Shown: positions 31,093 to 63,496 of the stretch, in pieces
How positions within the stretch are numbered: position 1 is the first letter of the stretch
How the letters are laid out: each line of letters opens with the position of its first letter
Assembly: GCA_964360785.1 (NCBI GenBank)
Contig: CAYHXX010000001.1
Location: 260,187 to 324,186 of the forward strand
Origin: an uncultured Gammaproteobacteria bacterium
GTDB lineage: Bacteria > Patescibacteriota > Microgenomatia > Woykebacterales > RBG-16-39-9b
DNA length: 64,000 nucleotides
Reading direction: 5' to 3'
Made by a program: the position numbers and the translations under genes
Notes under the pieces: generated by a model
Told to the model about the DNA's origin: nothing
The model's input: the letters and a program-made list of their open reading frames with translations, nothing else
Database searches by the model: none

Positions 31093-31099
31093 CTTTTTT

Positions 31100-37634: not shown

Positions 37635-37664
37635 GATTTGAAGTATATGATTTCTCTGAACCTA

Positions 37665-37692: not shown

Positions 37693-37718
37693 GGGGCTGG
37701 GGAAAGGAGGATCGCCTT

Positions 37719-37958: not shown

Positions 37959-37982
37959 CGAGCCCCTGATCCCCCACAACCA

Positions 37983-38023
37983 GAGCTCGGCGCACCCGCG
38001 ACGAGCTCTCAATTATTATTTAC
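37983..38023 (+). terminator. Intrinsic terminator after csrA (GAGCTCG-N12-CGAGCTC stem followed by a T-rich tract)
   Basis: The 7-bp GC-containing inverted repeat at 37983-38008 is followed by tcaaTTaTTaTTT. Confidence 0.4.
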
Positions 38024-38645: not shown

Positions 38646-38650
38646 GGAGT

Positions 38651-42037: not shown

Positions 42038-42054
42038 AAGTAACTCAAATTATA

Positions 42055-44276: not shown

Positions 44277-44333
44277 AACAGGTTTTTATTATACTCTTTG
44301 AAGGGAACTTACTGAACTTAAATTATATAAAAT

Positions 44334-45341: not shown

Positions 45342-45356
45342 AAGTAGGACTTAAGT

Positions 45357-46298: not shown

Positions 46299-46309
46299 AT
46301 ATTAAGAAA

Positions 46310-47452
46310 TTACTTATTTTGTTCTAACACTTGATTGTAGACCCCAAGAGTCTCTTCAGCCATCTTTTTCCATGAGTATTTTCTGACCTGTTGATAGCCT
46401 AGTGCAACCATATTGTTTCTGATCTTTGGCTCTTTGGTTAAGGAATTAATCTTTCGAACTAGTTCTTTTGGATCCCTTGGGTCAAAATAGATAGCTGCAT
46501 CTGCGTATACCTCTGGTAAACTAGTTGCTTTTGCTGCGATAACCGGACACCCTACTCCCATTGCTTCTAGTCCCGGCAAACCAAACCCTTCTGAAAGAGA
46601 GGGGAAAACGAAACATAGGGCTTGGTTAAGAAGTACTTTCAACTCTTCATCTGGGACAAAACCGGGTGTGATAAGTCTACTGCGAACTCCCAGTTCTTCG
46701 GCTTCTCGAATTACCCGATCCAAAAAACTGTTACGTGGGGAAACGCAAACAAATTTCAGATCAGTGGGAATTTGCGCTAGAGATTCGAGTAACACTTTTA
46801 TATTTTTGTAAGGATAGGTGTTACCAACAAAAATTACATATGGACTTTTAACTGAGTATTTTCCAAAAACCTCTTTTATTTTTCCCTCACTTGGAGAGAG
46901 TTGTGGTTCATAAAACTCGTCGGCCCCTTCTGGAGTGACTGCAATTTTTTTGGAGTCAACTTTCATATTTGTTACCAACTGTGTCTTAACATATTGACTT
47001 GGTGTAAAAACAATCTTTGCCCTAGTAACCGCCTGTCTCAAAGTTAACTTGTAAATGTTTTGTTTTGTCAGATAAACTGGTGCAATTTTCGTTGAAGCTG
47101 CAGACGAACCAAAATTGCTTTTTGTCAGATCATGAATAGTGACAACAAATTTGCCTGGATAAAGAAGCGGCACGTTGAAATGGGGAAAATGTACTAAGTC
47201 AAGTTTCTCTTTTACTAGTATTGCCGGCATGATTACCTGTTCTTTAACACTGTACCAACGAGCATCCGCTTTTATCTTTGTGAAGTTAGGGTTTTTAGGA
47301 TTGTAGAGATGAAAATTTGAAGTTCGTAAGAAAACAAAATACTCATTCTTCTGATCAATTAGTTCCAGATTTTCAAGTAGCTTTTCAACATAACGTCCAA
47401 TACCAGTACCTTCTGGACCGTAAAAACGAGCATCTATACCAATTCTATCCAT
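46310..47452 (-). CDS. Glycosyltransferase family 4
   Basis: 380 aa GT-B protein. The C-terminal motif EGFGLPGLEAMGVGCPVIA is typical of GT4. Confidence 0.8.
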   Translation of the reverse strand: MDRIGIDARFYGPEGTGIGRYVEKLLENLELIDQKNEYFVFLRTSNFHLYNPKNPNFTKIKADARWYSVKEQVIMPAILVKEKLDLVHFPHFNVPLLYPGKFVVTIHDLTKSNFGSSAASTKIAPVYLTKQNIYKLTLRQAVTRAKIVFTPSQYVKTQLVTNMKVDSKKIAVTPEGADEFYEPQLSPSEGKIKEVFGKYSVKSPYVIFVGNTYPYKNIKVLLESLAQIPTDLKFVCVSPRNSFLDRVIREAEELGVRSRLITPGFVPDEELKVLLNQALCFVFPSLSEGFGLPGLEAMGVGCPVIAAKATSLPEVYADAAIYFDPRDPKELVRKINSLTKEPKIRNNMVALGYQQVRKYSWKKMAEETLGVYNQVLEQNK

Positions 47453-47454
47453 AG

Positions 47455-48282
47455 TTAATGCTTAGCTAACTTTGTAATAATAGCAGCTGGGTAACTCAAC
47501 AAAATGAATGGTAACAGAATCAAAACGTGCAACCAAGTTTTGTGTTTAGAAAAATAATAAATTAAGCTTTTGTTCCAAATAGTCTGCCTTTTCCAAAAAC
47601 TTAATTGTTTTGTACTCTGACCCACCAAATGTGTAACTGCCGCTTCTGGGTAATAAATAATTTTGTAACCTTTATCCTTTATCCTTTTCAACAAGTCTGT
47701 GTCCTCGAACCACAAAAAGAAATTTTCGTCAAAACCGCCTAGTTTAATTAACGTTTCTCTCCGAATCAGAATAGCCGCTCCCATTAAGTGATTGGCCTCT
47801 TGAGTTTTTGTATAATCAAATTTTTGGTAAACAAGTTTTTTAAAAAAAGGTACTCTGTGTAATTTCAAGCTGATAATAGACTGATTAAGTAGGTTGGGAA
47901 AGTCAGTCGCTTCATTTAAAACTTTTCCTGACTCATCAGTCAGTTTTGGCCCAATCACAAAAACTTCACGATTTCCTTCAAGAAATCCTAGCATAGTTTC
48001 TACTGAATCTTTTTTAACCTCTGTATCTGGATTAAGAAGTAAAATAAATTCCCCATTTGCTATTTTTATCCCTTGATTAGAGGCTTTACCGTATCCTCGA
48101 TTGTCAGAATTAACAATGGCTTTTACTTCCGGATGCTTTTTTAGTATTTGGAATGTTGAATCTGAAGAATTATTGTCAAGGGCAATCACTTCTTTATCCA
48201 TCTTAATGTTTTTGAGCGAGTCCAAACATTTCTGAATTGTATTGGCTGAATTCCAAGTAACAATGATGATTGAGAGTTTCAC
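47455..48282 (-). CDS. Glycosyltransferase family 2
   Basis: 275 aa beginning SIIIVTWNS with a DxD-type GT-A fold. Confidence 0.8.
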   Translation of the reverse strand: MKLSIIIVTWNSANTIQKCLDSLKNIKMDKEVIALDNNSSDSTFQILKKHPEVKAIVNSDNRGYGKASNQGIKIANGEFILLLNPDTEVKKDSVETMLGFLEGNREVFVIGPKLTDESGKVLNEATDFPNLLNQSIISLKLHRVPFFKKLVYQKFDYTKTQEANHLMGAAILIRRETLIKLGGFDENFFLWFEDTDLLKRIKDKGYKIIYYPEAAVTHLVGQSTKQLSFWKRQTIWNKSLIYYFSKHKTWLHVLILLPFILLSYPAAIITKLAKH

Positions 48283-48286
48283 GATT

Positions 48287-49915
48287 TTAAGATAAAAGGT
48301 TAATTGCTTGGTTGAAATAAGGATCTTCTTCTTTTAAGAGTTTCTGCCACTTTTCTCTACAAAACTCTCCTTCTTTTTTCAGTCGTTTTGCTTTTTCTGA
48401 TGTTGTATCTAAACCCCGAGTTAACGATTCGTAATGATAAAGCTCGGCATAAGGCGTCCAAACAACTCGGTAACCCATCTGGTAAATCTTTAAACAAAGG
48501 TCGATGTCGTTAAAAGCAATTGGTAAGTTTTCCTCAAAGCCCCCAACTTTTTCAAACAGTTCCTTTTTGAGTAAAAGACAAGCGCCAGTCACAGCTCGAT
48601 AATTTTGAGGTGTAATTAATCTGTAAAAATAACCTGGATCAGTTCTTGGTTTTTGGACAAACACATGGCCAGCGAAATCCCCTACTCCCAGTATAGCACC
48701 GGCGTGCTGAATCGTATTGTTTGGATAATAGAGTTTTGCACCAACAATTCCCACACCTTTTTTTTCTGCCACTGCTAGCATTTCTTCCAGCCAGTTTGGG
48801 GTAATAATCTCTGTATCATTATTTAAAAACAATAAATACTCGGCACTACTCTTTTTAGCAGCGAAATTATTTAAAGTAGAAAAGCTAAAAGGAAAGTTGT
48901 AGTCGACAATCTTTAGATTATCAAATTTTGAAATTTCTTCGAAATAGTCCAGAGTTCTTTTCTCTTCACTTTGATTATTAACCACACAGATTTCGTAATT
49001 ATGATAAGTAGTCTTCATCACGATTGAGTCTAGACATTTTTTCAACACTTCGACTTTATCTCTAGTCGGTATAATGACGGTTATTTTTGGATGAATCTTT
49101 AATTGGTAACTAATGTTAAAAACATTATTAAATTTTGTGCTTTCAACAGAAGCTAGAACTCCCGTTTTTTCTAAACTAGCTTTAATTAAATCTGGGTTAA
49201 TTGTGTAAACTGTCTTTCCCTTCTGATTATGGTAAAGAATTTTATTTACATGAGAAGCTTTATTTTCCAGAGCAATCTGGAATATAACCTCTCCGAAGTT
49301 ATTTGGTTTAATATCTTTGATTAGATTAAATCTCTCTTTAAACAACTTATTTTTTATTATTATTCCGTTTCCAAGATAGTTGAAACTTTCAAAATATTCT
49401 GGCGACCAATCAGGTTTTAGAGAAGGAGAAAAGCGATTATTCAAGCTTCCAATGTAAACATCCTCATCAGTATAAAAGAGATTGGATTCAGAATTAGTAT
49501 TGACAGCAAAAGCAACTTCATAGAGTGCTTCGGGAGAAAGCAGGTCTCCTGATTGTAAAAAAACTATGTAATCGCCCCAGTTTTCTTTTTCGTAAAGCTT
49601 TTCCAGGCCCTCTTTCAACGAGGTCAGGTTCCAGTTTAAATAAATTTGCTTTTCCAAGGACTTCAAGGATAGGTCTTCATCTAGCTTATTTTTTTCGTTT
49701 GAAAATATCAGTACTGTAAACTTTGGCCTTTTTAAAAAACCTTCGATATTCTTTTTCAGTTTAATAAGCTCACCTGAATTTGGTTCGTTAGCTTTAAGCC
49801 AAGATCGGTAGGGAAAATTTTTTGAAGGAATTAATTTACTAAGTATTTTAATAAAAAATACTCTAAGACCCTTGTTTTTTATTGTTGAAAGACTCTTCCT
49901 GATTAAATTGGCCAT
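48287..49915 (-). CDS. Tandem GT2 glycosyltransferase with a degenerate first domain and an intact second domain
   Basis: 542 aa. The C-terminal domain has ITVIIPTRDK...NDTE. The N-terminal half resembles the first GT2 domain of the 913-aa protein (YTDEDVY...KPDWSPEYF) but has lost the DxD-region consensus. Confidence 0.7.
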   Translation of the reverse strand: MANLIRKSLSTIKNKGLRVFFIKILSKLIPSKNFPYRSWLKANEPNSGELIKLKKNIEGFLKRPKFTVLIFSNEKNKLDEDLSLKSLEKQIYLNWNLTSLKEGLEKLYEKENWGDYIVFLQSGDLLSPEALYEVAFAVNTNSESNLFYTDEDVYIGSLNNRFSPSLKPDWSPEYFESFNYLGNGIIIKNKLFKERFNLIKDIKPNNFGEVIFQIALENKASHVNKILYHNQKGKTVYTINPDLIKASLEKTGVLASVESTKFNNVFNISYQLKIHPKITVIIPTRDKVEVLKKCLDSIVMKTTYHNYEICVVNNQSEEKRTLDYFEEISKFDNLKIVDYNFPFSFSTLNNFAAKKSSAEYLLFLNNDTEIITPNWLEEMLAVAEKKGVGIVGAKLYYPNNTIQHAGAILGVGDFAGHVFVQKPRTDPGYFYRLITPQNYRAVTGACLLLKKELFEKVGGFEENLPIAFNDIDLCLKIYQMGYRVVWTPYAELYHYESLTRGLDTTSEKAKRLKKEGEFCREKWQKLLKEEDPYFNQAINLLS

Positions 49916-49945
49916 ACCTTTTTATTATATACAGAACTCTAGGTC

Positions 49946-49975
49946 TTGACTATTTTAAGAATCTTTTCTTATAAT
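49946..49975 (+). promoter_or_regulatory. Sigma70-type promoter TTGACT-17-TTATAAT for the plus-strand C-methyltransferase gene
   Basis: A near-consensus -35 (49946-49951) and -10 (49969-49975) with a 17-nt spacer, about 65 nt upstream of the ATG at 50040, in a divergent intergenic region. Confidence 0.4.
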
Positions 49976-50039
49976 GTTGATTATCTCCCCACTGCCAGCT
50001 TTCCTAAATAAGGAAATTTTATTACTTATAGTTTAACAA

Positions 50040-51302
50040 ATGAAAAACATCTCTTCTGAAAAAGGTCCTGAGGTTTATGAGCTTATCAACTGCCGCACTT
50101 GTGGACAAAAAACTTTAAAGACTTTTCTTCATCTCGGTCCCATGCCAATTCCTAATGGATTTGTAAAGCCTGATCAACTTGTTGAAGGAGAGGCTTACTT
50201 CCCCCTTGATGTAGCTTTCTGTAAAAATTGTGGATTGATGACCTTGGCTCACGTTGTTCGGCCAGACATTATGTTCAGTAATTATGTTTATATCCCAGGT
50301 ACTTCAACAACTATGGTTGACCATTTTGGTGAAATGGCCAAAGAAATCACCAAGCGCTTTAATCTCAATAAAGACTCACTAGTTATCGATGTTGGCAGTA
50401 ACGACGGGACTTTATTAAAACAGTTCAAATCTCTTGGGGTGAAGGTTCTTGGAATTGATCCCGCTGAAAATATTGCTAAAGAAGCAACCACACAAGGTAT
50501 AGAAACATTGGCTGAATTCTTTGGTGAAGAAGTGGCCAAGGACGTTTCTAAGAAAATAGGCCTGGCCGATGTTATTACTGGAACCAATGTTATCGCTCAT
50601 ATTGACAACTTGGTTGATGTCATGAGAGGAGTCGATGCACTCTTGAAAGACGATGGCGTCTTTATCGGCGAGTTTCCATACTTGGTTGATCTAGTTGAGC
50701 ATGGCGAGTTTGATACTATTTATCACGAACACCTCTCCTATTTTAGTATCCGCTCACTGCTCGCTCTAGCCGAAAGAACAAATTTTGAAATTTTTGATGC
50801 GCAAAGAACAAATGTCCACGGTGGTTCAATTCAAGTCTTTTTCAGAAAAAAAGGCAGGAATAAAGAACCCTTTGTCAGTGAGTTAGTAATTCTTGAGAAA
50901 GCCAAGCGACTCGACACTATCGCTCCCTTCGAAGATTTTGCAAGACGGACTTATTTAAAATGCGAAGAACTTAACGAAATTCTGAAGCAATTGAAATCCC
51001 AAGGCAAAAGAATCGTTGGTTATGGCGCAGCCGCAAAAGGCAACGTGCTAACCAACTTTTTCAGAATTGGACCAGAACTGTTAGATTATATAGTAGACTC
51101 AATTCCTTATAAGCAGGGTCTCTACACTCCGGGGCTTCATATTCCAATCTACCCAGAAACTAAACTTCTGGAAGACATGCCAGATTATGCTTTGATTTTT
51201 GCTTGGAATTTTGCAGACGAGATTGTTAAGAAAAATAGTGAGTACCGTAAAAAAGGTGGAAAGTTCATTACTACCATACCAACAATAAAGATACTTTACT
51301 AG
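50040..51302 (+). CDS. NDP-hexose C-methyltransferase-like enzyme (Zn-ribbon, SAM methyltransferase and C-methyltransferase C-domain)
   Basis: 420 aa with an N-terminal CxxC...CxxC Zn-ribbon (CRTCGQ...CKNCG), a class I SAM motif (VIDVGSNDG) and a C-terminal domain like the TylC3/C-methyltransferase family. Confidence 0.65.
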   Translation: MKNISSEKGPEVYELINCRTCGQKTLKTFLHLGPMPIPNGFVKPDQLVEGEAYFPLDVAFCKNCGLMTLAHVVRPDIMFSNYVYIPGTSTTMVDHFGEMAKEITKRFNLNKDSLVIDVGSNDGTLLKQFKSLGVKVLGIDPAENIAKEATTQGIETLAEFFGEEVAKDVSKKIGLADVITGTNVIAHIDNLVDVMRGVDALLKDDGVFIGEFPYLVDLVEHGEFDTIYHEHLSYFSIRSLLALAERTNFEIFDAQRTNVHGGSIQVFFRKKGRNKEPFVSELVILEKAKRLDTIAPFEDFARRTYLKCEELNEILKQLKSQGKRIVGYGAAAKGNVLTNFFRIGPELLDYIVDSIPYKQGLYTPGLHIPIYPETKLLEDMPDYALIFAWNFADEIVKKNSEYRKKGGKFITTIPTIKILY

Positions 51303-51336
51303 TTAAGTACTTTGGCAATTCTCCTACGCAGATTTT

Positions 51337-51888
51337 TTAACCGGGCTTAACTTTCCAAAAATCTTCTCCGAAAACATCCCAAGGAAGTCGTCTTTCATCC
51401 GGGTTTTCAATATTGAATTGCTGATTCACGAAGTAAAAGACATACAAAGATTCCGGTCCTAAATTAGCATACCCATGAGCCACCCCAGAGGGAATAAGAA
51501 GCATATGTGATTTACCCCCACCTAAAATTAATTTCACCTTCACATTTTTTGTTGGAGATGATTCTCTGGTGTCAACTAGTCCAACCGTCAGAACTCCGTC
51601 AGGTGGAATATACCAAAGGTCTTGCTGTTTAAAATGTAGGTGCCAAGCTTTTATTGACCCTGGCATGACTTTACTGAGGTTAATTTGTCTTAGTTGAAAA
51701 TTTTCTAACCCTTCAAAGGAACCGGAATCAGAGAGACGTCCTACTTCGCAAAGAAAACCATCTTCGGCGGTAAAATTCTTCAGTTCCCAAACCTTTACCC
51801 CATCAATTTGTTGGCTCTTTGAATAATCCTGTACTTTAATTTTTTCACGAAAATCTTTTAAGATATCTTTTTTTGTTAGTTCTTCCAT
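51337..51888 (-). CDS. RmlC-like cupin (dTDP-4-dehydrorhamnose 3,5-epimerase family)
   Basis: 183 aa cupin. It has a WHLHF..Q core and AHGY, resembling the RmlC RGLHFQ...AHGF motifs. The exact specificity is uncertain. Confidence 0.55.
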   Translation of the reverse strand: MEELTKKDILKDFREKIKVQDYSKSQQIDGVKVWELKNFTAEDGFLCEVGRLSDSGSFEGLENFQLRQINLSKVMPGSIKAWHLHFKQQDLWYIPPDGVLTVGLVDTRESSPTKNVKVKLILGGGKSHMLLIPSGVAHGYANLGPESLYVFYFVNQQFNIENPDERRLPWDVFGEDFWKVKPG

Positions 51889-51913
51889 AGTTTAATTATA
51901 GCTTATTTAATTT

Positions 51914-54655
51914 TTAAACTCTAATACTAAAATCTTCTTTATCCAGAGTTAAGTTGGGATTATAGAAAGGATCATTTTCAAGAAGTTTACCCCATTTTTT
52001 CTTCATATAGCTTACTTCAGAGGCATCAACACCTCTAGTTTCGATCTTTCCCAAAGATGTTGATTCATGATGAAAGAGGACTGCCTGAGGCACGTAGACC
52101 ATTTGAAAACCCTTTGCTCTTAGTTTTAGACAGTAATCAACATCATTAAAGAGTATTCTTAAATCCTCATCAAAACCACCGACCTCAAGATAGAGGTTTC
52201 TTTTGGTTAGAAAACAGGCTCCAGTGACAGCAGAATAATTTCTATTAACGTTAACTAAACCACCATAACCAATTTCGTCAGGATAACGGTAGTACGGGTG
52301 TCCAGCAATCCTGTCCGGTCCTAAACCCAGAATAACTCCGCAATGCTGAACTTTTTTATCTCCAAACAGTAGCTTGACCCCAACTCCACCAACATCTTTA
52401 CGCTGAATATGACCAACCATTATTGATAACCAATCCTTTTTAATCGGTTCAATATCGTTTCCCAAAAGAAGAATGTACTCACCTTTCGCCTCACTCACTG
52501 CGTAATTAAAAATTTTGGGTATATGAAATGGTCTGTCGTAATCCAGAATCCTAACTTTTGGGTTTATTTTTAACTTCTCAAAATACTCGTAGGTTTCTTT
52601 TTCTATACTTTGATTATTAATAATAATAATTTCAAAGTTTTGATATGTGTTTGATAAAACTCCATCAACACAGCGCCTTAAAAAATTTACTTTATCTTTA
52701 GTTGAAATAACTATGCTTACTAGTGGCTCTTCTTTAATTGAATAAATAATGTCATAAGATCCTAAAAAGGGTCCTGGTTTTATGATTCCTGGCGTACCCC
52801 TTCTTTGTAAAGCATCGTTAATAACATCTTTATGGACTTTGTAAGCGTATGTTTTACTTCTAGGATTACCTGCAGTTGATCCACTCCACATCCGAAAACT
52901 ATAGAGAATGTTAGGTATATGATAAACTTCCTTAGTTTGTTCAACAGTCCGAAGGATATAATCCCAATCTTGGGTACCCGGGTATTTTTCATTGAAGAGG
53001 CCAATCTTATCCGCCAAGGATTTTCTCAAAGCAAGAAAATGAGTCATATACATCATGCTCAGTAGTAAGTCTGGGGAGTAGTCTGGTTTAAAGAAAGGTC
53101 CTGAATGATTTTCGTTTTCGTCTATTTTATCTTCATCACTATAAATCAAATCCGCTTTCGGATGCTCGTTCAAGACTTTAACTGTTTCGAAAAGCGCATT
53201 TGGCCAATAAATGTCATCATGGTCAAGAACCCCAATGAATTCTCCTGTCACCATCTTCAAAGCAGTATTTGAAGCAACGGATATACCACCGTTTTTTTCC
53301 CGATAAATAACCTTTATTCTCTTATCTTTCTTCTTATACTCTTCGAGAATTAACTTTATATTTTCGTCATTGGAAGCATCATCAGCAATACAAAGTTCCC
53401 AATTTTTGTAGATTTGATTTATCACAGAATCGATTGCTCTTCTTAAAAATTTTTCAGGTGTGTTATAAACTGGCAACAAGATACTTATTTTTGGCTTACT
53501 TGTAAATTTTTCTTCCTGATCCTTCATTTCTTCAATCTTTTGGGTAGTCAAAGCGTTTTTCATTAACCAATCATTATACTGAACATCCATAACTTGCGAA
53601 TAACGAAACTTGTTATAAATAGCTCTTGGACCGTACTTAAAGAGAATTTTAAAGCCTTTTTTAATTTTATCTTGATTTAAGACCACTTTTACAATTTTCT
53701 TAAATAAAGTAAAACCTTGACCGAGTTTGTAAATTCTTGTTTTTTTATACGAGTCAATCAAGATCTGAATTTCTTTAACCTCACTATTTAGTCTTTCATT
53801 TTGTTTCTGAAGTTGAGTGAAATCAAATTCTTTCTGATGAATTCTTTCTGACAGTAAACTCAATGAATCGTAAACAAATTTTTCGTAAAGATTTTCATCT
53901 TTCTTGGATTTTAAATCGTCAATGTTTAACCTATCTACCAAATTCTTGTCTTTGGTAAGAAAGTAAATCTTTCGATAAGAAGGGTCAAAACTATCCCCTA
54001 GTTTCATAAAGTTTTTATTGTAATTTTCATAATAAGCCAACGTATCTTTATCGGTTGTTTCATACACTTCCTCTAAAAAGTTAATACCCATGAACAAAAT
54101 CCAGTTATTAAGATTGTTTTGCCCTATCTTTTTGAAATAAACCCCGTTCTCCTTACAAAATTTTTCAAGCTCGGTTTCCTTTGGCAAAGTACTTTCTAAG
54201 TGTTCTTTTAACCAAGGATGCATTCTACCTAAGTTCTCATAGTAAAGATCATTCAGATAACCCTCAGCTTGTTTAACGTGGGGTGAGTAAAACGGTGCAG
54301 TTAGAATTACCCCGTATTTTGAAACTCTTAGGAGCTCTTGGATAAACTTATATTTACTCTTTTTTGGAATATGCTCCAGTGTTTCTAAAGAAGTCACAAA
54401 ATCAAAAGCCTTATCATTAAAACCGATATTTAGCGCGTCACCTTGAATATAATTTGGTTCATTGTAATCGTTTGGAAGGGTATCAAAGATTTGAATATTG
54501 TAGTTTTTTGGTAAGAACTCGTAAAGTTTGCCCCCTCTACCGCCAACATCAATTATTTTAATATCTTTATTCTCACCAGCAATTTTTTGTAATATTTTGG
54601 AGACAAAAAAATTTCGGCTATAGAGATCCGGTTGTAGTTTGATTAAATCTTTCAT
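51914..54655 (-). CDS. Multidomain glycan polymerase/terminator: class I SAM methyltransferase, coiled coil, then two GT2 domains
   Basis: 913 aa. The N-terminus has a SAM fold (IIDVGGRGG...LETLEHIP). A coiled coil spans roughly residues 230-330. GT2 domain 1 has ISILLPVYNT...DDASND...DHDD and GT2 domain 2 has VSIVISTKDK...NND. Confidence 0.75.
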   Translation of the reverse strand: MKDLIKLQPDLYSRNFFVSKILQKIAGENKDIKIIDVGGRGGKLYEFLPKNYNIQIFDTLPNDYNEPNYIQGDALNIGFNDKAFDFVTSLETLEHIPKKSKYKFIQELLRVSKYGVILTAPFYSPHVKQAEGYLNDLYYENLGRMHPWLKEHLESTLPKETELEKFCKENGVYFKKIGQNNLNNWILFMGINFLEEVYETTDKDTLAYYENYNKNFMKLGDSFDPSYRKIYFLTKDKNLVDRLNIDDLKSKKDENLYEKFVYDSLSLLSERIHQKEFDFTQLQKQNERLNSEVKEIQILIDSYKKTRIYKLGQGFTLFKKIVKVVLNQDKIKKGFKILFKYGPRAIYNKFRYSQVMDVQYNDWLMKNALTTQKIEEMKDQEEKFTSKPKISILLPVYNTPEKFLRRAIDSVINQIYKNWELCIADDASNDENIKLILEEYKKKDKRIKVIYREKNGGISVASNTALKMVTGEFIGVLDHDDIYWPNALFETVKVLNEHPKADLIYSDEDKIDENENHSGPFFKPDYSPDLLLSMMYMTHFLALRKSLADKIGLFNEKYPGTQDWDYILRTVEQTKEVYHIPNILYSFRMWSGSTAGNPRSKTYAYKVHKDVINDALQRRGTPGIIKPGPFLGSYDIIYSIKEEPLVSIVISTKDKVNFLRRCVDGVLSNTYQNFEIIIINNQSIEKETYEYFEKLKINPKVRILDYDRPFHIPKIFNYAVSEAKGEYILLLGNDIEPIKKDWLSIMVGHIQRKDVGGVGVKLLFGDKKVQHCGVILGLGPDRIAGHPYYRYPDEIGYGGLVNVNRNYSAVTGACFLTKRNLYLEVGGFDEDLRILFNDVDYCLKLRAKGFQMVYVPQAVLFHHESTSLGKIETRGVDASEVSYMKKKWGKLLENDPFYNPNLTLDKEDFSIRV

Positions 54656-55864
54656 TTATTTACCTAAACTCCATTCGGCATCAAGTTTAATAATTCCCGA
54701 TTGGTTAACTTCAGTTGAAGCCACTTTGAAACTGGGGCCCTTGTCAATAAAATCATACGCAAAAGAAACATTATAGTCGAACAGACCAACTGTGAGAAGG
54801 TAGGTTCCAGATAGCATAGGAATTTTTCTAATTTTGTAATCAACAAAACCATCTCCATTTAACTTTTTAATGGGGAAACCCGAATCCTTGGTGTTAGGTC
54901 CAGTTATATGAACACCATCTTCTTTCCTGTGAAAAGCAATACCGATAACCGGATTAACAATTTCTTTATTAGTCTGATAATAAATTCTGACGGTGAGAGA
55001 AGTTCCAGTTTCAAAAAATTCTCTTTTCTTAAAACTTACGTCGAGAAACTCCACTTTTTTAATCTTAAACTCCTTTGCTTTTGTTTTGTAATCAAACTTA
55101 CTTTCACTTTTCTTCTTTTCATGTTCTTCCATATTTAACCGCAAATACTCTAAGACTGCTTTTTGAGGAGATCCTTCAAAATAAACCTGCCCTTTATTCA
55201 TTACAATTACCCGATCACAAAATTCCTGAATTCTGCCTAAATCGTGAGAGATGAAAACAATGGTCGCTCCTATCTTCTTAAATTCCTGAAATTTTGTAAA
55301 ACTCTTTTCCTGAAAGGAAGCGTCACCAACCGATAAAACTTCATCAACCAGAAGAACCTCTGGAGCAACATTAACGGCCACTGAAAACGCAAGACGGACT
55401 TGCATTCCTGCTGAATAGAATTTTAGCTGAGTATCAATAAATTTTTCCATTTCAGAAAAAGAAATAATGTCATCAAGTTTCTTATCAATTTCCTTTTTTG
55501 TTAAACCTAAAATTGACCCGTTTAGATAGATATTTTCTATTCCAGTCAGTTCAGGATGAAAACCAGTTCCCAATTCAAATAATGTCGAGACCTTACCAAT
55601 AACCTTAATCGTCCCGCTATCAGGGTTAATTATTCTTGCTAGTACTCTAAGCAAAGTGGTTTTACCCGACCCGTTACTACCGATAATTCCCAGCGATTCA
55701 CCTTTTTTTACGTTAAAGGAAACATTTTTTAATGCCCAGAACTGCTCTACGTAAGACTTCTTTTCTTTAAAAGCCTTTGTAACCAAACCTTTTAAGGTTT
55801 CCTCTTTACCGTGAGTAATCTTAAAAATCTTACTTATATTTTTAACTTCAATTGTATTTGCCAT
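54656..55864 (-). CDS. wzt: ABC transporter ATP-binding protein Wzt with C-terminal carbohydrate-binding extension
   Basis: 402 aa with Walker A GSNGSGKTTLL, the signature LSAGMQVRL and Walker B LLVDE. A roughly 150-aa beta-rich extension follows. Confidence 0.85.
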   Translation of the reverse strand: MANTIEVKNISKIFKITHGKEETLKGLVTKAFKEKKSYVEQFWALKNVSFNVKKGESLGIIGSNGSGKTTLLRVLARIINPDSGTIKVIGKVSTLFELGTGFHPELTGIENIYLNGSILGLTKKEIDKKLDDIISFSEMEKFIDTQLKFYSAGMQVRLAFSVAVNVAPEVLLVDEVLSVGDASFQEKSFTKFQEFKKIGATIVFISHDLGRIQEFCDRVIVMNKGQVYFEGSPQKAVLEYLRLNMEEHEKKKSESKFDYKTKAKEFKIKKVEFLDVSFKKREFFETGTSLTVRIYYQTNKEIVNPVIGIAFHRKEDGVHITGPNTKDSGFPIKKLNGDGFVDYKIRKIPMLSGTYLLTVGLFDYNVSFAYDFIDKGPSFKVASTEVNQSGIIKLDAEWSLGK

Positions 55865-56638
55865 TTAAATTTCTTCTGCAAATTTTCCCTCTAATTTTCC
55901 GAACAAATAAAAACCAATTAATAAGGAGCCAAAAGTCGAAACCAGGATAACAAGCATAATTTCTTTACCCGGAAAAACATTGTCAAGAACAATATTTCTG
56001 TAAGCAGTAAGAAAAGAGGCCATTGGGTTAAGGAGATAAAATCCTGCATACTTCTCAGGAATTAGAGAGATTGGATAAAAGATTGGGCTGGCAAAATACC
56101 ACACTGGCAATGAACTCTCAACCAAAATAGGAACATCTCGAAAGAAAACGCTTAGTGCTGCTAGCATCAAAGCTATTCCAAGAACAAACAACACTTGTAA
56201 AATTAACAAAATCGGAAAGAATAGCCAAAGCAAATTCGGTAATATTTGGAAAAAAAGTAACAGAATTATTAACACAACAAGCGAAAAGATCAGTTGTATT
56301 AAGTTTCCAATTACAATTGAAATGGGGAAGATTTCCCGAGCCAGATAAATTTTCTTTATTAGACCTCCATTATCAATAATAGATCTGGAAGATTGTATTA
56401 ACGAAGAAGCGAGAAACTGCCACGCTAGTATTCCAATTAGTAAGAAGATAGGAAAGTTTTTTACACCAGCTCTGATAACGAAAGAGAAAACGATAGCCAA
56501 AACAACCAAGTTCAGCAGGGGATTAAGAAAAGACCAAATAAATCCTAAAGCAGAACCCTTATAGCGAGTTTTTAAATCTCTGGCAACAAAATTTCGTACT
56601 ACGTCACGATAGCTGTAAATTTCCTTTAATTTTTTCAT
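55865..56638 (-). CDS. wzm: ABC-2 type polysaccharide exporter permease Wzm
   Basis: 257 aa with 6 TM helices. It is translationally abutted to wzt. Confidence 0.8.
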   Translation of the reverse strand: MKKLKEIYSYRDVVRNFVARDLKTRYKGSALGFIWSFLNPLLNLVVLAIVFSFVIRAGVKNFPIFLLIGILAWQFLASSLIQSSRSIIDNGGLIKKIYLAREIFPISIVIGNLIQLIFSLVVLIILLLFFQILPNLLWLFFPILLILQVLFVLGIALMLAALSVFFRDVPILVESSLPVWYFASPIFYPISLIPEKYAGFYLLNPMASFLTAYRNIVLDNVFPGKEIMLVILVSTFGSLLIGFYLFGKLEGKFAEEI

Positions 56639-56744
56639 ATCTTTTTACTGAATTGGTATTATATCGCTCTTTACAATACATGATCCTAGCGATGTAATCG
56701 AAGACTACTGTTACTCCCTCAAGTTGCGAACACGAGTGGCGTAA

Positions 56745-57626
56745 TCACGGGTGATTATAGTTTATTAATCCTGATGTTTCAATATAATCTGCACAAGCAC
56801 TTTTCCAATCTCTTAAAACCACCCCAAGTTTCGCTGATCTTTCATTTTTTAAAACTGTATAGTTTGGTGGTTTCGAATCTCTTTCGAAATCTTGCAGTTT
56901 AATTGGTTTTATTTTTACATTAGTCATTTTCGTTAATTCAAGAATAAGTTCTGCCCATTCAAACCTTGAGGCAAATCCCCCATTGACCAAATGAAAAATC
57001 CCACTTGGACTCTTGCGAATTAATTTCTCAAGCGCTTCTGCTAAATCGGGGGTATAAGTTGGAGTGGAAATTTCATCCTCTACTACTTTCAAGAAACCCT
57101 GCTCTCTCGCTCTGTTAACTATCTTATGCGGAAAATTTGTTGTTGAGGCAGGTCCATAAAGCCAAGCAACCCGGACAATAGAACAATCTGGACCCAAGAC
57201 CGTTTCTGCATAAGTCTCTCCCAGCCTTTTCGACTTTCCATAAGGGGTTATTGGATTGGGATAATCCATTTCTAAATACGGGCTTTTTTTCTGACCATCG
57301 AAAACCTCATTTGTACTAATATAGATTAATTTAGCATTAATATTCTTCACTGCTTCGGCAACGTTTCTCGTCCCCTCACCATTAATAACCATTGCTTTTT
57401 TAGGTTCTTTTGCACAACCATCAACATCCGTCCAAGCTCCAGCATGAATAACAAAGTCAGGTCTCTCGAGCACAGTCACCTCGACCGTTTGTTTTTTGTT
57501 TGTAAAATCCAAACTATTTTTATCGGTAGCTATTACTTGAAATTTTTTCTTAAAAACGCGGACTAATTCCTTCCCGAGTTGACCACCTGCTCCCGTAATT
57601 AGGATTTTCATTTTTGTCTTCAACAA
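56745..57626 (-). CDS. rmlD: dTDP-4-dehydrorhamnose reductase
   Basis: 293 aa with the Rossmann motif ILITGAGGQLG and RmlD substrate-binding-domain similarity. Confidence 0.8.
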   Translation of the reverse strand: MLKTKMKILITGAGGQLGKELVRVFKKKFQVIATDKNSLDFTNKKQTVEVTVLERPDFVIHAGAWTDVDGCAKEPKKAMVINGEGTRNVAEAVKNINAKLIYISTNEVFDGQKKSPYLEMDYPNPITPYGKSKRLGETYAETVLGPDCSIVRVAWLYGPASTTNFPHKIVNRAREQGFLKVVEDEISTPTYTPDLAEALEKLIRKSPSGIFHLVNGGFASRFEWAELILELTKMTNVKIKPIKLQDFERDSKPPNYTVLKNERSAKLGVVLRDWKSACADYIETSGLINYNHP

Positions 57627-57690
57627 ATATCGTCCGTGTACTCTAAAATATTAAAGTTTTTCAAAACTTGCATCAGGTCGATATATTTTT

Positions 57691-58692
57691 TTACCTTTCT
57701 TGGTATTGTTTTTTGTAATATTCTTCGTACGCACCACTTTTAAGCGGCTTCCACCACCATTCATTTTCCTGATACCACTTGATTGTCATTTTAATACCTT
57801 CTTCAAACGTTATTTTTGGTTCCCAAGAAAGTTCTTTTCTTAACTTAGTACTATCAATACTATAGCGACGATCGTGTCCAGGTCGGTCCTTAACCGGCTC
57901 AATGTAAGATTTATCTTTCCCAAAATTACTTACTAGTAGCTCGGCAATTTCTTTATTTGCTATTTTTTCTCCAGTACCAATGTTATAAACCTGTCCAACC
58001 TTACCTTCGTGCAAGATTGTATCGATTGCTTCGCAATGATCACTCGTGAAAATCCACTCGCGCACATTTAAACCATCGCCGTAAAGCGGGACTTTTTTAT
58101 TTTCAACCAAGTTAGTAATAAAAAGAGAGATTAATTTTTCTGGGTATTGGTTTGGTCCATAGAAATTACAGCTGTGAGTAACTACTACTGGAACCTTGTG
58201 GGTCTCAAAATAAGCCCGGCACAGCAAGTCTCCTCCGGCTTTTGACGCTGCATAGGGGCTATTTGGCTGGAAAGAGCTACTTTCAGTAAAACTCCCCTCT
58301 TCTATCGAACCAAAGACCTCATCCGTAGAGATCTGTACCATCTTTTTTACTTGGTTTTCTTTGACTGCATCGAGTAAACTCAGAGTTCCAATCACATCGG
58401 TTTTAGCAAAGTCATAAGCGTTAAGAATTGAACGATCGACATGAGTCTCAGCTGCGTAGTTGATAACTGTATCAACTCCTTTGGTAACTTCTTTAACTTT
58501 CTTGGTATCAGTAATGTCACCTTTAATAAATTGGTAATTGGAGTTATTTTCAACTTCTCTAAGATTACTTGGGTTACCAGCGTAAGTTAATTTGTCGTAA
58601 TTAATTATTTTGTAATCTGGATATTTTTTGAGAACGTGTTTAATAAAATGGGACCCCATAAATCCCGCCCCTCCTGTTATCAAGATCTTCAT
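57691..58692 (-). CDS. rmlB: dTDP-glucose 4,6-dehydratase
   Basis: 333 aa beginning MKILITGGAGFMGSHF with the extended SDR YxxxK motif (YAASKAG). Confidence 0.9.
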   Translation of the reverse strand: MKILITGGAGFMGSHFIKHVLKKYPDYKIINYDKLTYAGNPSNLREVENNSNYQFIKGDITDTKKVKEVTKGVDTVINYAAETHVDRSILNAYDFAKTDVIGTLSLLDAVKENQVKKMVQISTDEVFGSIEEGSFTESSSFQPNSPYAASKAGGDLLCRAYFETHKVPVVVTHSCNFYGPNQYPEKLISLFITNLVENKKVPLYGDGLNVREWIFTSDHCEAIDTILHEGKVGQVYNIGTGEKIANKEIAELLVSNFGKDKSYIEPVKDRPGHDRRYSIDSTKLRKELSWEPKITFEEGIKMTIKWYQENEWWWKPLKSGAYEEYYKKQYQER

Positions 58693-59459
58693 CTTTCCTT
58701 TCCCTGATTAAAATTGGTAAGTCCTTTTTCTGTTTCCTTACCTAAACGCTTTCTTGTCCAAAAGACGTTTGTTCTGTACAAACTTTCGAAAGTACCGGCA
58801 TCAGACCAAAAACCATCGAGCTCTGCCCAGCGCATTTTTCCAGAATCAATGTAACGATTATTAACGTCTGTAATTTCCATTTCGCCTCGATCAGAAGGTT
58901 TATTCATCCGGATGTAATCAAAAACCTTGTTATCATATACGTAAAGCCCAGTCACGGCTAGATTGTTTGCCGGCTTAGCTGGCTTCTCCTCAATTTGAAT
59001 TATTTTACTGTTGTCAGATTTATCAAAAACTGGAACCCCAAACCTTTGAGGGTCGGTAACTTCTTTAAGAAAAACTAAAGACCCTTCATCAAACTCTTTC
59101 ACCTCTTTTTTAATATCAGCGTCAGTACAGTTGTCTCCCAGAATAACAGCAACAGAGTCTTTACCAACGAAGTCCTCACAAAGTTTTAGTGCCTCAGCAA
59201 TACCACCTTCTCCTTCTTGATAGGCATACTCTAAATGGTCAACTCCAAAATCCTCACCATTTTTTAGCACGTGTAGGAAATCTCCGGCGTGTGGCCCACC
59301 CGTCACAATAATAATTTCTTTAATACCGGCATTAACCAATGTTTGAATTGGGTAGTAAACCATCGGTTTATCAAAAACCGGAAGTAAGTGTTTGTTTGTT
59401 GCGTGGGTTAGTGGGTAAAGTCGAGTCCCTTTACCACCAGCCAGTATGGCACCCTTCAT
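58689..59459 (-). CDS. rmlA: Glucose-1-phosphate thymidylyltransferase
   Basis: 256 aa beginning MKGAILAGGKGTRLYPLT...KHLLPVFDKPMVYYP, nearly colinear with RmlA though slightly short at the C-terminus. Confidence 0.85.
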   Translation of the reverse strand: MKGAILAGGKGTRLYPLTHATNKHLLPVFDKPMVYYPIQTLVNAGIKEIIIVTGGPHAGDFLHVLKNGEDFGVDHLEYAYQEGEGGIAEALKLCEDFVGKDSVAVILGDNCTDADIKKEVKEFDEGSLVFLKEVTDPQRFGVPVFDKSDNSKIIQIEEKPAKPANNLAVTGLYVYDNKVFDYIRMNKPSDRGEMEITDVNNRYIDSGKMRWAELDGFWSDAGTFESLYRTNVFWTRKRLGKETEKGLTNFNQGKER

Positions 59460-59533
59460 ATAGTGTTTAATTCTAACATATCACGCTACTGATCTTTACA
59501 GCGGTTATTTGTCATCAATTCTAATCACTTGTG

Positions 59534-61433: not shown

Positions 61434-61462
61434 AGTTCAGCAAGTTTAGTTAAATTTATAAG

Positions 61463-63441: not shown

Positions 63442-63496
63442 TTTGAGATGAATATAACAAGAAAGTATTTTAGTTTAACCAAGGCCAATTTGCAAT

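What the first reader, a model, noticed from the sequence alone, without database searches (positions are those of the whole stretch)
51914..54655. 913-aa fusion of SAM methyltransferase, coiled coil and tandem GT2 domains: terminator, ruler and polymerase in one polypeptide
The architecture is an N-terminal class I methyltransferase, a roughly 100-aa heptad region and then two complete GT2 (DxD) domains. It recalls Klebsiella O12 WbbB-type proteins, in which a capping enzyme is tethered by a coiled coil to the polymerising glycosyltransferases. The coiled-coil length is proposed to set glycan length. It sits directly upstream of a CBM-bearing Wzt. The neighbouring 542-aa protein (48287..49915) is a paralog of the tandem-GT2 part with a decayed first domain.
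Basis: partly seen in the sequence, partly recalled or inferred. Interest (0 to 1): 0.55.

Follow-up and report, generated by a model that had tools for sequence, protein, structure and literature searches.

The report
Methyl-capping enzyme fused to rhamnan polymerase
This gene encodes one protein that probably both builds a rhamnose-based cell-surface sugar chain and caps it with a methyl group, joined by a short coiled-coil spacer; the design is real, but it is already known from Klebsiella O7 and Geobacillus, so this is a new example rather than a new kind.

Summary
The 913-aa ORF (51914..54655, minus strand) is real. It has an N-terminal class I SAM methyltransferase (aa 1-248), one long heptad helix (aa 254-305), a strongly basic amphipathic segment (aa 306-352) and two GT2 domains (aa 386-640 and 641-913).

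Two details of the finding need correcting. The heptad region is about 50 aa, not about 100. The gene lies immediately downstream of wzm-wzt in transcription (TAAATG junctions), not upstream.

The tandem GT2 part is 37% identical (E 8e-119) to the biochemically characterised dTDP-rhamnose polymerase modules of Klebsiella pneumoniae O7 ORF6. ORF6 is itself a methyltransferase, coiled coil and 2xGT2 fusion. Geobacillus WsaE, a methyltransferase with two rhamnosyltransferase domains in a wzm-wzt-wsaE operon, is a second precedent.

In 36 homologues the methyltransferase and GT2 parts are conserved, while the spacer varies from 140 to 474 aa. Heptad segments occur only in the spacer. This window has the shortest spacer of the 36.

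The same methyltransferase family also occurs as stand-alone methyltransferase-coil proteins. The 542-aa neighbour is confirmed as a paralogue with a dead first GT2 domain.

It is a new member of a known kind, of modest interest.

The parts
53912..54655 (-). aa 1-248: class I SAM-dependent methyltransferase domain. Motif I is I34-IDVGGRGG-42. D58 ends beta-2, and E94-H95 and H146-PWLKE-H152 are family-invariant. Putative chain-terminating O-methyltransferase.
53741..53896 (-). aa 254-305: a single 52-residue helix with heptad periodicity. The best register has 11/16 hydrophobic a/d positions and one Asn at an a position. Putative coiled-coil spacer (ruler), about 7.7 nm if it is a canonical coiled coil.
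   Evidence: Heptad score maximum at aa 262-309, reached by 0.45% of 2000 shuffles. AlphaFold helix 253-304 in model numbering, which is real 254-305. No Pro or Gly in the segment. In 33 of 36 homologues a heptad segment is found, always in the equivalent spacer and never elsewhere.
53600..53740 (-). aa 306-352: basic amphipathic helical segment (14 K/R, 1 D/E; highest hydrophobic moment 0.67). It begins at the conserved S-x-x-[WY]-[KR] junction motif. Inferred membrane-docking or inter-module contact region.
   Evidence: Charge and hydrophobic moment. Low-confidence helices in the AlphaFold model. An equivalent basic segment (net charge +4 or more) is present in 26 of 36 homologues. It is also present at the N-terminus of the 542-aa paralogue and of the stand-alone 619-aa GT2x2 protein of L041.
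53501..53599 (-). aa 353-385: N-terminal helices of the GT2 module (Y-x-x-W motif). These belong to the polymerase module, not to the spacer.
   Evidence: Aligns to the N-termini of stand-alone tandem-GT2 proteins, for example P0046 residues 12-75, and to the 542-aa paralogue from residue 36.
52736..53500 (-). aa 386-640: first GT2 (GT-A) domain with D425-D426-x-S428, D478-H-D480-D481 (DxDD) and Y505-S-D-E-D509. By homology a dTDP-L-rhamnose alpha-1,2-rhamnosyltransferase.
   Evidence: Pfam Glycos_transf_2. These motif residues are invariant or present in at least 33 of 36 homologues, except D426, which is present in 24 of 36. 37% identity to the O7 ORF6 GT modules, including the mutagenised DxDD motif. 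Foldseek matches to two-GT-A polymerases PmHS2 and K4CP, E 1e-24 to 1e-19.
51917..52735 (-). aa 641-913: second GT2 domain with N680-N-Q-S683, G732-N733-D734 (a degenerate N-x-D), N837-D-V-D840 and H862-H-E-S865. By homology an alpha-1,3-rhamnosyltransferase. Its activity is less certain than that of the first domain.
   Evidence: Pfam Glyco_tranf_2_3 at aa 646-870. Column counts. Alignment to O7 ORF6 residues 1141-1414, whose N1230/D1232 were shown to be essential.
54656..55864 (-). Wzt: ABC-transporter ATPase with a C-terminal carbohydrate-binding module. Its stop codon abuts the 913-aa start codon.
   Evidence: Pfam ABC_tran plus Wzt_C at 72 bits. TAAATG junction.
55865..56638 (-). Wzm: ABC-2 permease. 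Its stop codon abuts the wzt start codon.
   Evidence: Pfam ABC2_membrane. Junction.
48287..49915 (-). 542-aa paralogue of the polymerase module. It has a basic N-terminal segment, a decayed first GT2 (no DDxS, no DxDD, a ~33-aa deletion) and an intact second GT2 with a canonical N-N-D.
   Evidence: BLASTP 31% identity, E 1e-85 to aa 360-904. Pfam finds one GT2 only, at aa 279-457. The ortholog in L083 (47% identity) shows the same decay.
51337..51888 (-). 183-aa RmlC-like cupin. It is the only candidate 3,5-epimerase to complete the dTDP-L-rhamnose pathway alongside rmlA, rmlB and rmlD at 56745..59459.
   Evidence: Pfam dTDP_sugar_isom 50.5 bits. TIGR01221 only 37 bits, below its cut-off. RmlA, RmlB and RmlD by Pfam.

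Best explanation
The 913-aa protein is a compact, fused terminator-spacer-polymerase of an ABC-transporter-dependent glycan pathway that most likely makes an L-rhamnan.

Proposed mechanism:
1. A chain is started on a lipid carrier by the cluster's phosphoglycosyl transferase (41339..42037) and the adaptor glycosyltransferases.
2. [quoted passage not shown] By homology to Klebsiella O7 ORF6 they form alpha-1,2 and alpha-1,3 linkages. The 542-aa paralogue may contribute a further activity.
3. The basic amphipathic segment in front of the GT2 pair holds the polymerase at the membrane.
4. The ~52-residue helix pairs with the same helix of one or more other subunits. This holds the methyltransferase about 7-8 nm away.
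5. Only a chain that has grown long enough reaches the methyltransferase. Its non-reducing terminal sugar is then O-methylated, which stops elongation.
6. The methylated end is recognised by the carbohydrate-binding module of the co-translated Wzt, and the chain is exported by Wzm/Wzt.

Shown here: the domain identities, the homology of the GT2 pair to a characterised rhamnan polymerase, the heptad character and family-wide length variability of the spacer, and the gene linkage.

Inferred: terminal rather than internal methylation, oligomerisation of the helix, membrane docking, length control, and the sugar and linkages.
- Polymerase: 37% identity, E 8e-119 over 545 aa to the K. pneumoniae O7 ORF6 GT modules. 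The ORF6 sequence was reconstructed from supplementary Fig. S8 of PMC11231755. Those modules polymerise rhamnose in vitro and have the same DxDD / N-x-D layout.
- Donor supply: rmlA, rmlB, rmlD and an RmlC-like gene are in the cluster.
- Spacer: heptad score p about 0.0045. In 36 homologues with the same methyltransferase and GT2 pair the spacer ranges from 140 to 474 aa. Heptad segments of 30-187 aa were found in 33 of the 36, only in the spacer.
- Coil-length variation: P0017 and P0020 are identical at 966 of the 967 aligned positions. Their only other difference is two extra 42-aa (six-heptad) repeats in the coil of P0020.
- Methyltransferase-coil module: the same methyltransferase family occurs as stand-alone proteins of about 346 aa. 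66 of 88 have C-terminal heptads, and some end in the same S-x-x-W-K motif. A split version sits next to wzm-wzt and a stand-alone GT2 pair in a Saccharibacteria genome.
- Linkage to export: the order wzm, wzt, fusion is conserved in Saccharibacteria, Peregrinibacteria, Eubacteriales and Thermoleophilia and in the 67%-identical locus L083. Wzt carries Wzt_C.
- Precedents for the mechanism: WsaE (PMC2943079; PMC3898925) and Klebsiella O7, O12, O3 and O5 (PMC11231755).
Against: - No experiment bears on this protein.
- The methyltransferase domain is not detectably related to the O7 ORF6 methyltransferase (E 0.023) or to WbdD (absent from the PDB hits). No characterised member of its own family was found, so terminal specificity is by analogy only.
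- The coil is short. My heptad score is a home-made heuristic. A monomer AlphaFold model cannot show oligomerisation, and pTM 0.63 leaves the inter-domain geometry open.
- The second GT2 domain has G732 where 34 of 36 homologues, and the essential N1230 of O7 ORF6, have Asn. It also has N680 where 22 of 36 have Asp.
- In the split Saccharibacteria locus the Wzt lacks a carbohydrate-binding module, so this methyltransferase family is not always coupled to CBM-gated export.
Confidence: 0.72

Rival explanations
1. The polymerase is really a two-protein unit produced by complementary decay after duplication. The 913-aa protein supplies the first GT2 activity plus the methyltransferase and spacer. 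The 542-aa paralogue, with a dead first domain and an intact second domain, supplies the second linkage. The second GT2 domain of the 913-aa protein is weakened or repurposed. This modifies the main explanation rather than excluding it.
For: - The 913-aa protein has G732-N-D and N680 where the family consensus is N-N-D and Asp. Gly at the G732 position is found in only 2 of the 36 aligned sequences.
- The 542-aa protein has lost DDxS and DxDD in domain 1 but keeps N-N-D in domain 2.
- The related locus L083 also carries a paralogue (548 aa) with the same decayed first domain.
- In Klebsiella O4 and O7 the polymerase modules are distributed over several proteins that interact.
Against: - The Asp that is invariant in all 36 homologues (D734 here) and the later conserved residues N837, D838, D840, H862, E864 and S865 of domain 2 are intact in the 913-aa protein.
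- Domain 2 is modelled with mostly high confidence; most 10-residue blocks have mean pLDDT of about 90 or more.
- Asn at position 680 occurs in 10 of 36 homologues.
- Only two related genomes show the pairing, which amounts to one evolutionary event.
Confidence: 0.2
2. The methyltransferase decorates the glycan, internally or stoichiometrically, rather than terminating it. The helix is only a dimerisation or linker element. Chain length would then be set by other means, such as coupling of export to synthesis or enzyme stoichiometry.
For: [quoted passage not shown]
- The coil here is the shortest spacer of the 36 sampled.
- A split relative works with a Wzt that lacks a carbohydrate-binding module.
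Against: - The adjacent Wzt carries a Wzt_C module. In the characterised Klebsiella systems this module recognises the chain's terminal moiety (PMC11231755).
- Heptad segments always accompany this methyltransferase family, whether fused or stand-alone.
- The coil varies in whole-heptad units between near-identical alleles, as expected for a tuned spacer.
Confidence: 0.12
3. The product is not an L-rhamnan. The GT2 pair uses another donor, for example a C-methylated 6-deoxyhexose made with the neighbouring C-methyltransferase, or GDP-mannose made by ManC. The methyltransferase would then cap that different sugar.
For: - A Methyltransf_13/14 sugar C-methyltransferase (50040..51302) and an atypical RmlC-like cupin flank the gene. 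They travel with it in L003 and L083.
- A ManC gene is in the cluster.
- Identity to the O7 modules is only 37%.
- N680 and G732 alter the donor-binding motifs of domain 2.
Against: - rmlA, rmlB and rmlD lie immediately upstream in the same orientation.
- Both characterised relatives with this architecture, O7 ORF6 and WsaE, use dTDP-L-rhamnose.
Confidence: 0.15

Closest known systems
Klebsiella pneumoniae O7 ORF6 (1414 aa; Kelly et al. 2024, PMC11231755)
   Same: - Both have an N-terminal methyltransferase, a coiled coil and two C-terminal GT2 modules in one polypeptide.
- Both are encoded with wzm, wzt and rml genes.
- The GT2 pair is homologous (37% identity, E 8e-119).
- The first-domain DxDD motif is the same.
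- The spacing between the two metal-binding motifs is almost identical: 253 aa here against 254 aa in ORF6.
   Different: - The O7 terminator is a methyltransferase-kinase pair that adds methyl-phosphate, and it also contains a CBM-like domain. The window protein has no kinase and no such domain.
- The window protein's methyltransferase belongs to another family (E 0.023).
- The window protein is 500 aa shorter, with a much shorter spacer.
- The O7-type methyltransferase is present in the window, but as a separate 304-aa protein at 60519..61433 (33% identity, E 1e-37).
Geobacillus stearothermophilus NRS 2004/3a WsaE (S-layer glycan; PMC2943079, PMC3898925)
   Same: - WsaE is a trifunctional protein with an N-terminal 2-O-methyltransferase that caps the chain and two rhamnosyltransferase domains (alpha-1,2 and alpha-1,3).
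- The gene order is wzm, wzt, wsaE with touching or overlapping codons.
- The pathway is ABC-transporter dependent, in a bacterium without an outer membrane.
   Different: - Sequence relatedness could not be tested, because the WsaE sequence and the primary paper were not available.
- The texts I could read do not mention a coiled coil in WsaE.
- WsaE needs a third enzyme, WsaF, for a beta-1,2 linkage.
Klebsiella O12 / Raoultella terrigena WbbB
   Same: Same logic: terminator at the N-terminus, coiled-coil ruler, two polymerising glycosyltransferases at the C-terminus, and CBM-gated export (PMC11231755).
   Different: - The WbbB terminator is a beta-Kdo glycosyltransferase, not a methyltransferase.
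- No WbbB chain appears among the PDB sequence matches of the window protein.
- The resemblance is an analogy of design, not family membership.
E. coli O8/O9a (Klebsiella O5/O3) WbdD with WbdA
   Same: A methyl or methyl-phosphate cap is added by an enzyme held at the far end of a coiled coil, with a membrane-binding and polymerase-recruiting region at the near end. The stand-alone methyltransferase-coil relatives found have this split layout.
   Different: - WbdD and the WbdA polymerase are separate proteins.
- WbdA makes mannan from GDP-mannose. To my knowledge its glycosyltransferase modules are GT4, not GT2.
- No WbdD chain appears among the PDB hits of the methyltransferase family profile at E up to 1.

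Membership tests
Fused terminator / coiled-coil / polymerase proteins of ABC-transporter-dependent glycan assembly (functional class: WbbB, O7 ORF6, WsaE) | A chain-modifying (terminating) enzyme domain at the end distal to the glycosyltransferases | tested here: met
   A class I SAM methyltransferase fold at aa 1-248. The terminating activity itself is not testable with these tools.
Fused terminator / coiled-coil / polymerase proteins of ABC-transporter-dependent glycan assembly (functional class: WbbB, O7 ORF6, WsaE) | An extended coiled coil between terminator and polymerase | tested here: inconclusive
   A 52-residue uninterrupted helix with heptad periodicity (p about 0.0045), found at the same place in 33 of 36 homologues. 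Oligomerisation could not be modelled. The coil is short compared with the homologues, whose heptad segments reach 187 aa.
Fused terminator / coiled-coil / polymerase proteins of ABC-transporter-dependent glycan assembly (functional class: WbbB, O7 ORF6, WsaE) | Polymerising glycosyltransferase modules in the same polypeptide | tested here: met
   Two GT2 domains that are 37% identical (E 8e-119) to the in vitro characterised O7 ORF6 polymerase modules.
Fused terminator / coiled-coil / polymerase proteins of ABC-transporter-dependent glycan assembly (functional class: WbbB, O7 ORF6, WsaE) | Genetic linkage to wzm and a wzt whose product carries a C-terminal carbohydrate-binding module | tested here: met
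   Wzm and Wzt (with Wzt_C at 72 bits) lie immediately upstream with abutting codons. The order is conserved in four other phyla or classes.
Fused terminator / coiled-coil / polymerase proteins of ABC-transporter-dependent glycan assembly (functional class: WbbB, O7 ORF6, WsaE) | Coil length determines glycan chain length | not testable with these tools
   Only indirect support: the spacer length varies from 140 to 474 aa in the family, and there is a whole-heptad repeat polymorphism between P0017 and P0020.
WbbB family (GT99 Kdo-transferase terminator) | An N-terminal beta-Kdo glycosyltransferase domain | tested here: not met
   The N-terminal domain is a methyltransferase. There are no WbbB chains among the PDB sequence hits.
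WbdD family | Sequence similarity to the WbdD methyltransferase or kinase, and no fused glycosyltransferases | tested here: not met
   The family profile search of the PDB at E up to 1 lists no WbdD chain. The protein has two fused GT2 domains.
K. pneumoniae O7 ORF6 family | An ORF6-N type methyltransferase-kinase terminator | tested here: not met
   BLASTP of ORF6 residues 1-442 against aa 1-255 gives E 0.023, over motif I only. No kinase-like domain fits between the methyltransferase and the coil.
K. pneumoniae O7 ORF6 family | An ORF6-C type tandem GT2 rhamnosyltransferase modules (DxDD in the first, N-x-D in the second) | tested here: met
   37% identity over 545 aa. DxDD is conserved. The second motif reads G-N-D, with the Asp that is invariant in all 36 homologues kept and the Asn replaced by Gly.
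WsaE (G. stearothermophilus) | Sequence homology to the WsaE methyltransferase and rhamnosyltransferase domains | not tested
   The sequence was not obtainable and the primary paper is not held. Only the architecture and gene order could be compared, from reviews.
Class I SAM-dependent methyltransferases | A seven-stranded Rossmann-like fold with a Gly-rich motif I and an acidic residue at the end of beta-2 | tested here: met
GT2 (GT-A, inverting) glycosyltransferases | A GT-A fold with a DxD-type metal-binding motif, present twice | tested here: met
   Pfam finds GT2-type matches in two regions. Foldseek matches two-domain GT-A polymerases. The first domain has DHDD. The second domain has a degenerate motif (G-N-D).

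The most novel reading that the evidence does not exclude
The locus may be a natural minimal version of the coiled-coil ruler system. It combines the shortest spacer of the 36 sampled homologues (about 50 heptad residues) with a polymerase that has been split by complementary decay. In that reading the 913-aa protein keeps a fully canonical first GT2 domain but a degenerate second one. The conserved 542-aa paralogue keeps only the second. The two would have to assemble, through their shared basic N-terminal segments, into one machine. A second, O7-type terminator system with its own Wzm/Wzt lies next door, in what is probably an ultra-small groundwater bacterium. The family would then offer a graded natural series of ruler lengths (30-187 heptad residues, including whole-heptad repeat alleles) for testing the ruler model outside Gram-negative O antigens.
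Probability: 0.15. Interest if true: 0.45.

Novelty: new member of a known kind. Interest (0 to 1): 0.28.

Why it matters
The coiled-coil ruler is one of the few understood ways in which bacteria measure the length of a polymer. It has been established experimentally only in a handful of enterobacterial O antigens. This window shows the same design in a metagenomic groundwater bacterium, in a compact form. It uses a methyltransferase family that has no characterised member.

The comparison set assembled here gives ready-made material for testing how general the ruler model is:
- the spacer ranges from 140 to 474 aa across 36 homologues;
- fused and split versions break at one conserved motif;
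- one pair of alleles differs only by two six-heptad repeats.

For annotation, proteins of this type are currently labelled only 'glycosyltransferase' or 'hypothetical'. They can be described more precisely. None of this changes current understanding.

Tried and rejected
- WbbB membership: rejected, because the terminator domain is of a different type and there is no sequence match.
- WbdD membership: rejected.
- O7-type methyltransferase in the 913-aa protein: rejected. That family is instead the neighbouring 304-aa protein.
- The 330-aa neighbour as an O7-type kinase: not supported. BLASTP against the available fragment of ORF6 (residues 310-442) gives E 0.41. The only other hint is a weak MNK1 kinase hit, E 0.013. 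There are no Pfam hits above threshold and no NCBIfam hits.
- The WsaE sequence and the primary paper could not be obtained, so homology to WsaE is untested.
- A single-sequence search with the methyltransferase domain returned only 5 proteins. A profile search returned 98, none characterised.
- NCBIfam gave only sub-threshold GT2 equivalogs and a weak MftM match for the methyltransferase.
- Rfam found nothing in the 64-kb window.
- The organism could not be named. The only evidence is the source, a Hainich groundwater metagenome whose record names carry the label '01um' (apparently a 0.1-um filter fraction), plus closest full-length relatives in Saccharibacteria and Peregrinibacteria.
- The '100-aa heptad region' was rejected. 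It is really a 52-aa heptad helix followed by a 47-aa basic amphipathic segment.
- Numbering caution: searches use residue numbers one lower than the real protein, because I trimmed the start codon instead of the stop codon.


Full report
**1. Observation**

The ORF at 51914..54655 on the minus strand is 913 aa with an ATG start. An identical protein is on record from Hainich groundwater metagenome assemblies whose record names carry the label '01um', apparently a 0.1-um filter fraction. It is also on record on a 497-kb NCBI contig.

Pfam finds Methyltransf_11 at 33.7 bits (cut-off 21.2), Methyltransf_23 at 26.9 bits and Glycos_transf_2 at 176.8 bits in two stretches. The GT2-type matches lie at aa 391-551 and 646-870.

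The full-length AlphaFold model has mean pLDDT 88. Its residue numbers are one lower than the real protein, because I trimmed the ATG instead of the stop codon. The same offset applies. In real numbering the model shows:
- an alpha/beta domain at aa 1-248;
- one uninterrupted helix at aa 254-305;
- three shorter, low-confidence helices at aa 307-351;
- two helices at aa 356-383;
- two GT-A domains.

**2. Methyltransferase domain**

A profile of 21 homologous N-terminal domains hits class I SAM methyltransferases in the PDB, with LahSB at E 4.5e-8 and PH0226 at 1.1e-7. The hits include a glucose O-methyltransferase.

Family-invariant residues are G38, D58, E94, H95, P121, L149, H152, P158, N213 and Y227. 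Motif I reads D36-V-G-G-R-G-G42. A family-specific H146-P-W-L-K-E-H152 motif sits in the helical insert. The domain is therefore a conserved, probably active, methyltransferase.

**3. Spacer**

I wrote an a/d-periodicity score, because no coiled-coil predictor was available. Only aa 262-309 exceed the 95% shuffle threshold. The observed maximum is reached in 0.45% of 2000 shuffles.

The best register has 11 of 16 hydrophobic core positions and one Asn at an a position. The heptad region is therefore about 50 aa, about 7.7 nm as a canonical coiled coil, and not about 100 aa.

The next 47 residues (aa 306-352) have 14 K/R against 1 D/E and the highest hydrophobic moment in the protein. I interpret them, by inference, as a membrane-docking segment.

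An equivalent basic segment precedes the GT2 pair in three other settings:
- in 26 of 36 homologues;
- at the N-terminus of the 542-aa paralogue;
- at the N-terminus of a stand-alone 619-aa GT2 pair in a Saccharibacteria genome.

Residues 323-384 align to the N-termini of stand-alone tandem-GT2 proteins. That part therefore belongs to the polymerase module, not to the ruler.

**4. Glycosyltransferases**

The first domain has D425-D-A-S428, D478-H-D-D481 and Y505-S-D-E-D509. These residues are invariant or present in at least 33 of the 36 homologues, except D426, which is present in 24 of 36.

The second domain has N680-N-Q-S, G732-N-D734, N837-D-V-D840 and H862-H-E-S865. D734 is invariant. G732 replaces an Asn found in 34 of 36 homologues, and N680 replaces an Asp found in 22 of 36.

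Foldseek places the pair closest to the two-GT-A polymerases PmHS2 and K4CP.

I reconstructed the sequence of the two GT modules of Klebsiella pneumoniae O7 ORF6 from supplementary Fig. S8 of PMC11231755. BLASTP gives 37% identity, E 8e-119, over 545 residues. Those modules were shown in vitro to add two alpha-1,2 rhamnoses and one alpha-1,3 rhamnose from dTDP-Rha. They depend on a DxDD motif (first module) and an N-x-D motif (second module). The distance between the two motifs is 254 aa in ORF6 and 253 aa here.

**5. Context**

On the coding strand the order is wzm (55865..56638), wzt with Wzt_C (54656..55864), then the 913-aa gene. Both junctions read TAAATG. The gene is therefore downstream of wzt, not upstream.

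Upstream lie rmlA, rmlB and rmlD. Downstream lie, in order:
- an RmlC-like cupin;
- an oppositely oriented sugar C-methyltransferase;
- the 542-aa paralogue;
- a 275-aa GT2;
- a GT4;
- a metallophosphoesterase;
- a polysaccharide deacetylase;
- a second GT4;
- ManC;
- a Bac_transf initiating enzyme;
- a DUF4012 protein.

The whole arrangement, apart from the metallophosphoesterase, recurs around a 67%-identical homologue (L083).

The order wzm, wzt, fusion recurs in Saccharibacteria, Peregrinibacteria, Eubacteriales and Thermoleophilia genomes.

**6. Family comparison**

The tandem GT2 module is very widespread, with more than 1100 hits. It is preceded in different proteins by methyltransferase, TPR, sulfotransferase, deacetylase or GT4 domains.

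In 36 homologues with the same methyltransferase, the two flanking parts align throughout. The spacer ranges from 140 aa (this protein, the shortest) to 474 aa. Heptad segments of 30-187 residues were found in 33 of the 36, always in the spacer and never elsewhere.

P0017 and P0020 are identical at 966 of the 967 aligned positions. Their only other difference is two extra copies of a 42-residue (six-heptad) repeat in the coil of P0020.

The same methyltransferase family also exists as stand-alone proteins with a median length of 346 aa. 66 of 88 have C-terminal heptads, and some end in an S-x-x-W-K/R motif plus a basic tail. In Saccharibacteria locus L041 such a 351-aa protein follows wzm, a CBM-less wzt and a stand-alone GT2 pair. 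Fused and split forms therefore break at the same junction, which here is S302-Y-K-K-T-R-I-Y-K.

**7. Mechanism**

The best-supported reading is the terminator-ruler-polymerase model described for Klebsiella O12, O7, O3 and O5 (PMC11231755) and for WsaE (PMC2943079). In this model:
- the GT2 pair extends a lipid-linked rhamnan at the membrane;
- the methyltransferase sits at the far end of the coil and caps chains that are long enough to reach it;
- the Wzt module then admits only capped chains to export.

The domain identities, the homology of the polymerase, the properties of the spacer and the gene linkage are shown here. Terminal methylation, oligomerisation, membrane docking and length control are inferred.

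The caveats are:
- the methyltransferase has no characterised relative;
- WsaE methylation was chain-length independent in vitro;
- the second GT2 motif is degenerate.

**8. The paralogue**

The 542-aa protein aligns to aa 360-904 (31% identity, E 1e-85). In its first domain it lacks DDxS, DxDD and about 33 residues, but it keeps N-N-D in the second domain. Its ortholog in L083 (47% identity) shows the same decay, so the dead domain is maintained by selection.

Set beside the degenerate second-domain motif of the 913-aa protein, this suggests a two-protein polymerase formed by complementary decay. I give that about 20%.

**9. Comparison with known systems**

The closest characterised relative is O7 ORF6. 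It has the same architecture and a homologous GT2 pair, but a different terminator: a methyltransferase-kinase plus a CBM-like domain. The 913-aa methyltransferase is unrelated to the ORF6 methyltransferase.

WsaE has the same architecture and gene order, but its sequence could not be tested. WbbB and WbdD are analogies of design only.

The protein is therefore a new, compact member of a known kind.

**10. Other observations**

The window holds a second Wzm/Wzt_C pair (61463..63441). It is followed by a 304-aa methyltransferase that is 33% identical (E 1e-37) to the O7 ORF6 N-terminal methyltransferase. Next comes a 330-aa protein with a C-terminal heptad segment (aa 263-307, p 0.004) and an S-R-T-W-K motif. 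This looks like a second, split terminator.

The two Wzt proteins are 53% identical in the ATPase domain but only 25% identical in the carbohydrate-binding module. That fits two differently capped glycans.

Noticed in passing
window 59534..61433 (-): A second putative terminator, split over two genes. The first is a 304-aa methyltransferase, 33% identical (E 1e-37) to the N-terminal methyltransferase of Klebsiella O7 ORF6. The second is a 330-aa protein with a C-terminal heptad segment (aa 263-307, p 0.004) that ends in SRTWKLAKAL, the same junction motif as in the methyltransferase-coil family. The kinase nature of the 330-aa protein is only hinted at (MNK1 hit, E 0.013).
   Followed up: partly
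window 61463..63441 (-): A second Wzm/Wzt pair, whose Wzt carries a Wzt_C module. The two Wzt proteins of the window are 53% identical in the ATPase part but only 25% identical in the carbohydrate-binding module. This suggests two glycans with different caps, exported from one locus.
   Followed up: partly
window 50040..51888: A sugar C-methyltransferase (Methyltransf_13/14, + strand) lies next to an atypical RmlC-like cupin, which scores only 37 bits on TIGR01221 against a cut-off of 156. Both travel with the fusion gene in Saccharibacteria locus L003 and in L083. A C-methylated 6-deoxyhexose may be part of the glycan.
   Followed up: no
P0017 and P0020 (homologues found): These two proteins are identical at 966 of the 967 aligned positions. 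Their only other difference is an in-frame 84-aa insertion in P0020, made of two extra copies of a 42-aa (six-heptad) repeat in the coil. This is either a natural coil-length polymorphism in whole heptads or an assembly collapse of a repeat.
   Followed up: partly
L041 4279..8725: A split version of the system in a Saccharibacteria genome: wzm, a 240-aa Wzt without a carbohydrate-binding module, a 619-aa stand-alone GT2 pair, then a 351-aa methyltransferase-coil protein. The methyltransferase-coil module is therefore not always paired with CBM-gated export.
   Followed up: partly
homologues P0010, P0012, P0015, P0019, P0021, P0023, P0026, P0027: These long-spacer homologues carry a conserved, non-basic segment with low helical hydrophobic moment (consensus ...GEPSAAVWYN...) immediately before the first GT2, in place of the basic amphipathic segment. 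It may be an extra domain like the CBM-like fold reported in O7 ORF6.
   Followed up: no
window 48287..49915 and L083 7777..9423: The dead first GT2 domain of the 542-aa paralogue is conserved in a 47%-identical ortholog. It is therefore a maintained pseudo-enzyme domain, not recent decay.
   Followed up: yes
window 1..64000: No Rfam family reaches its gathering score anywhere in the 64-kb window. Almost all long ORFs are on the minus strand.
   Followed up: no
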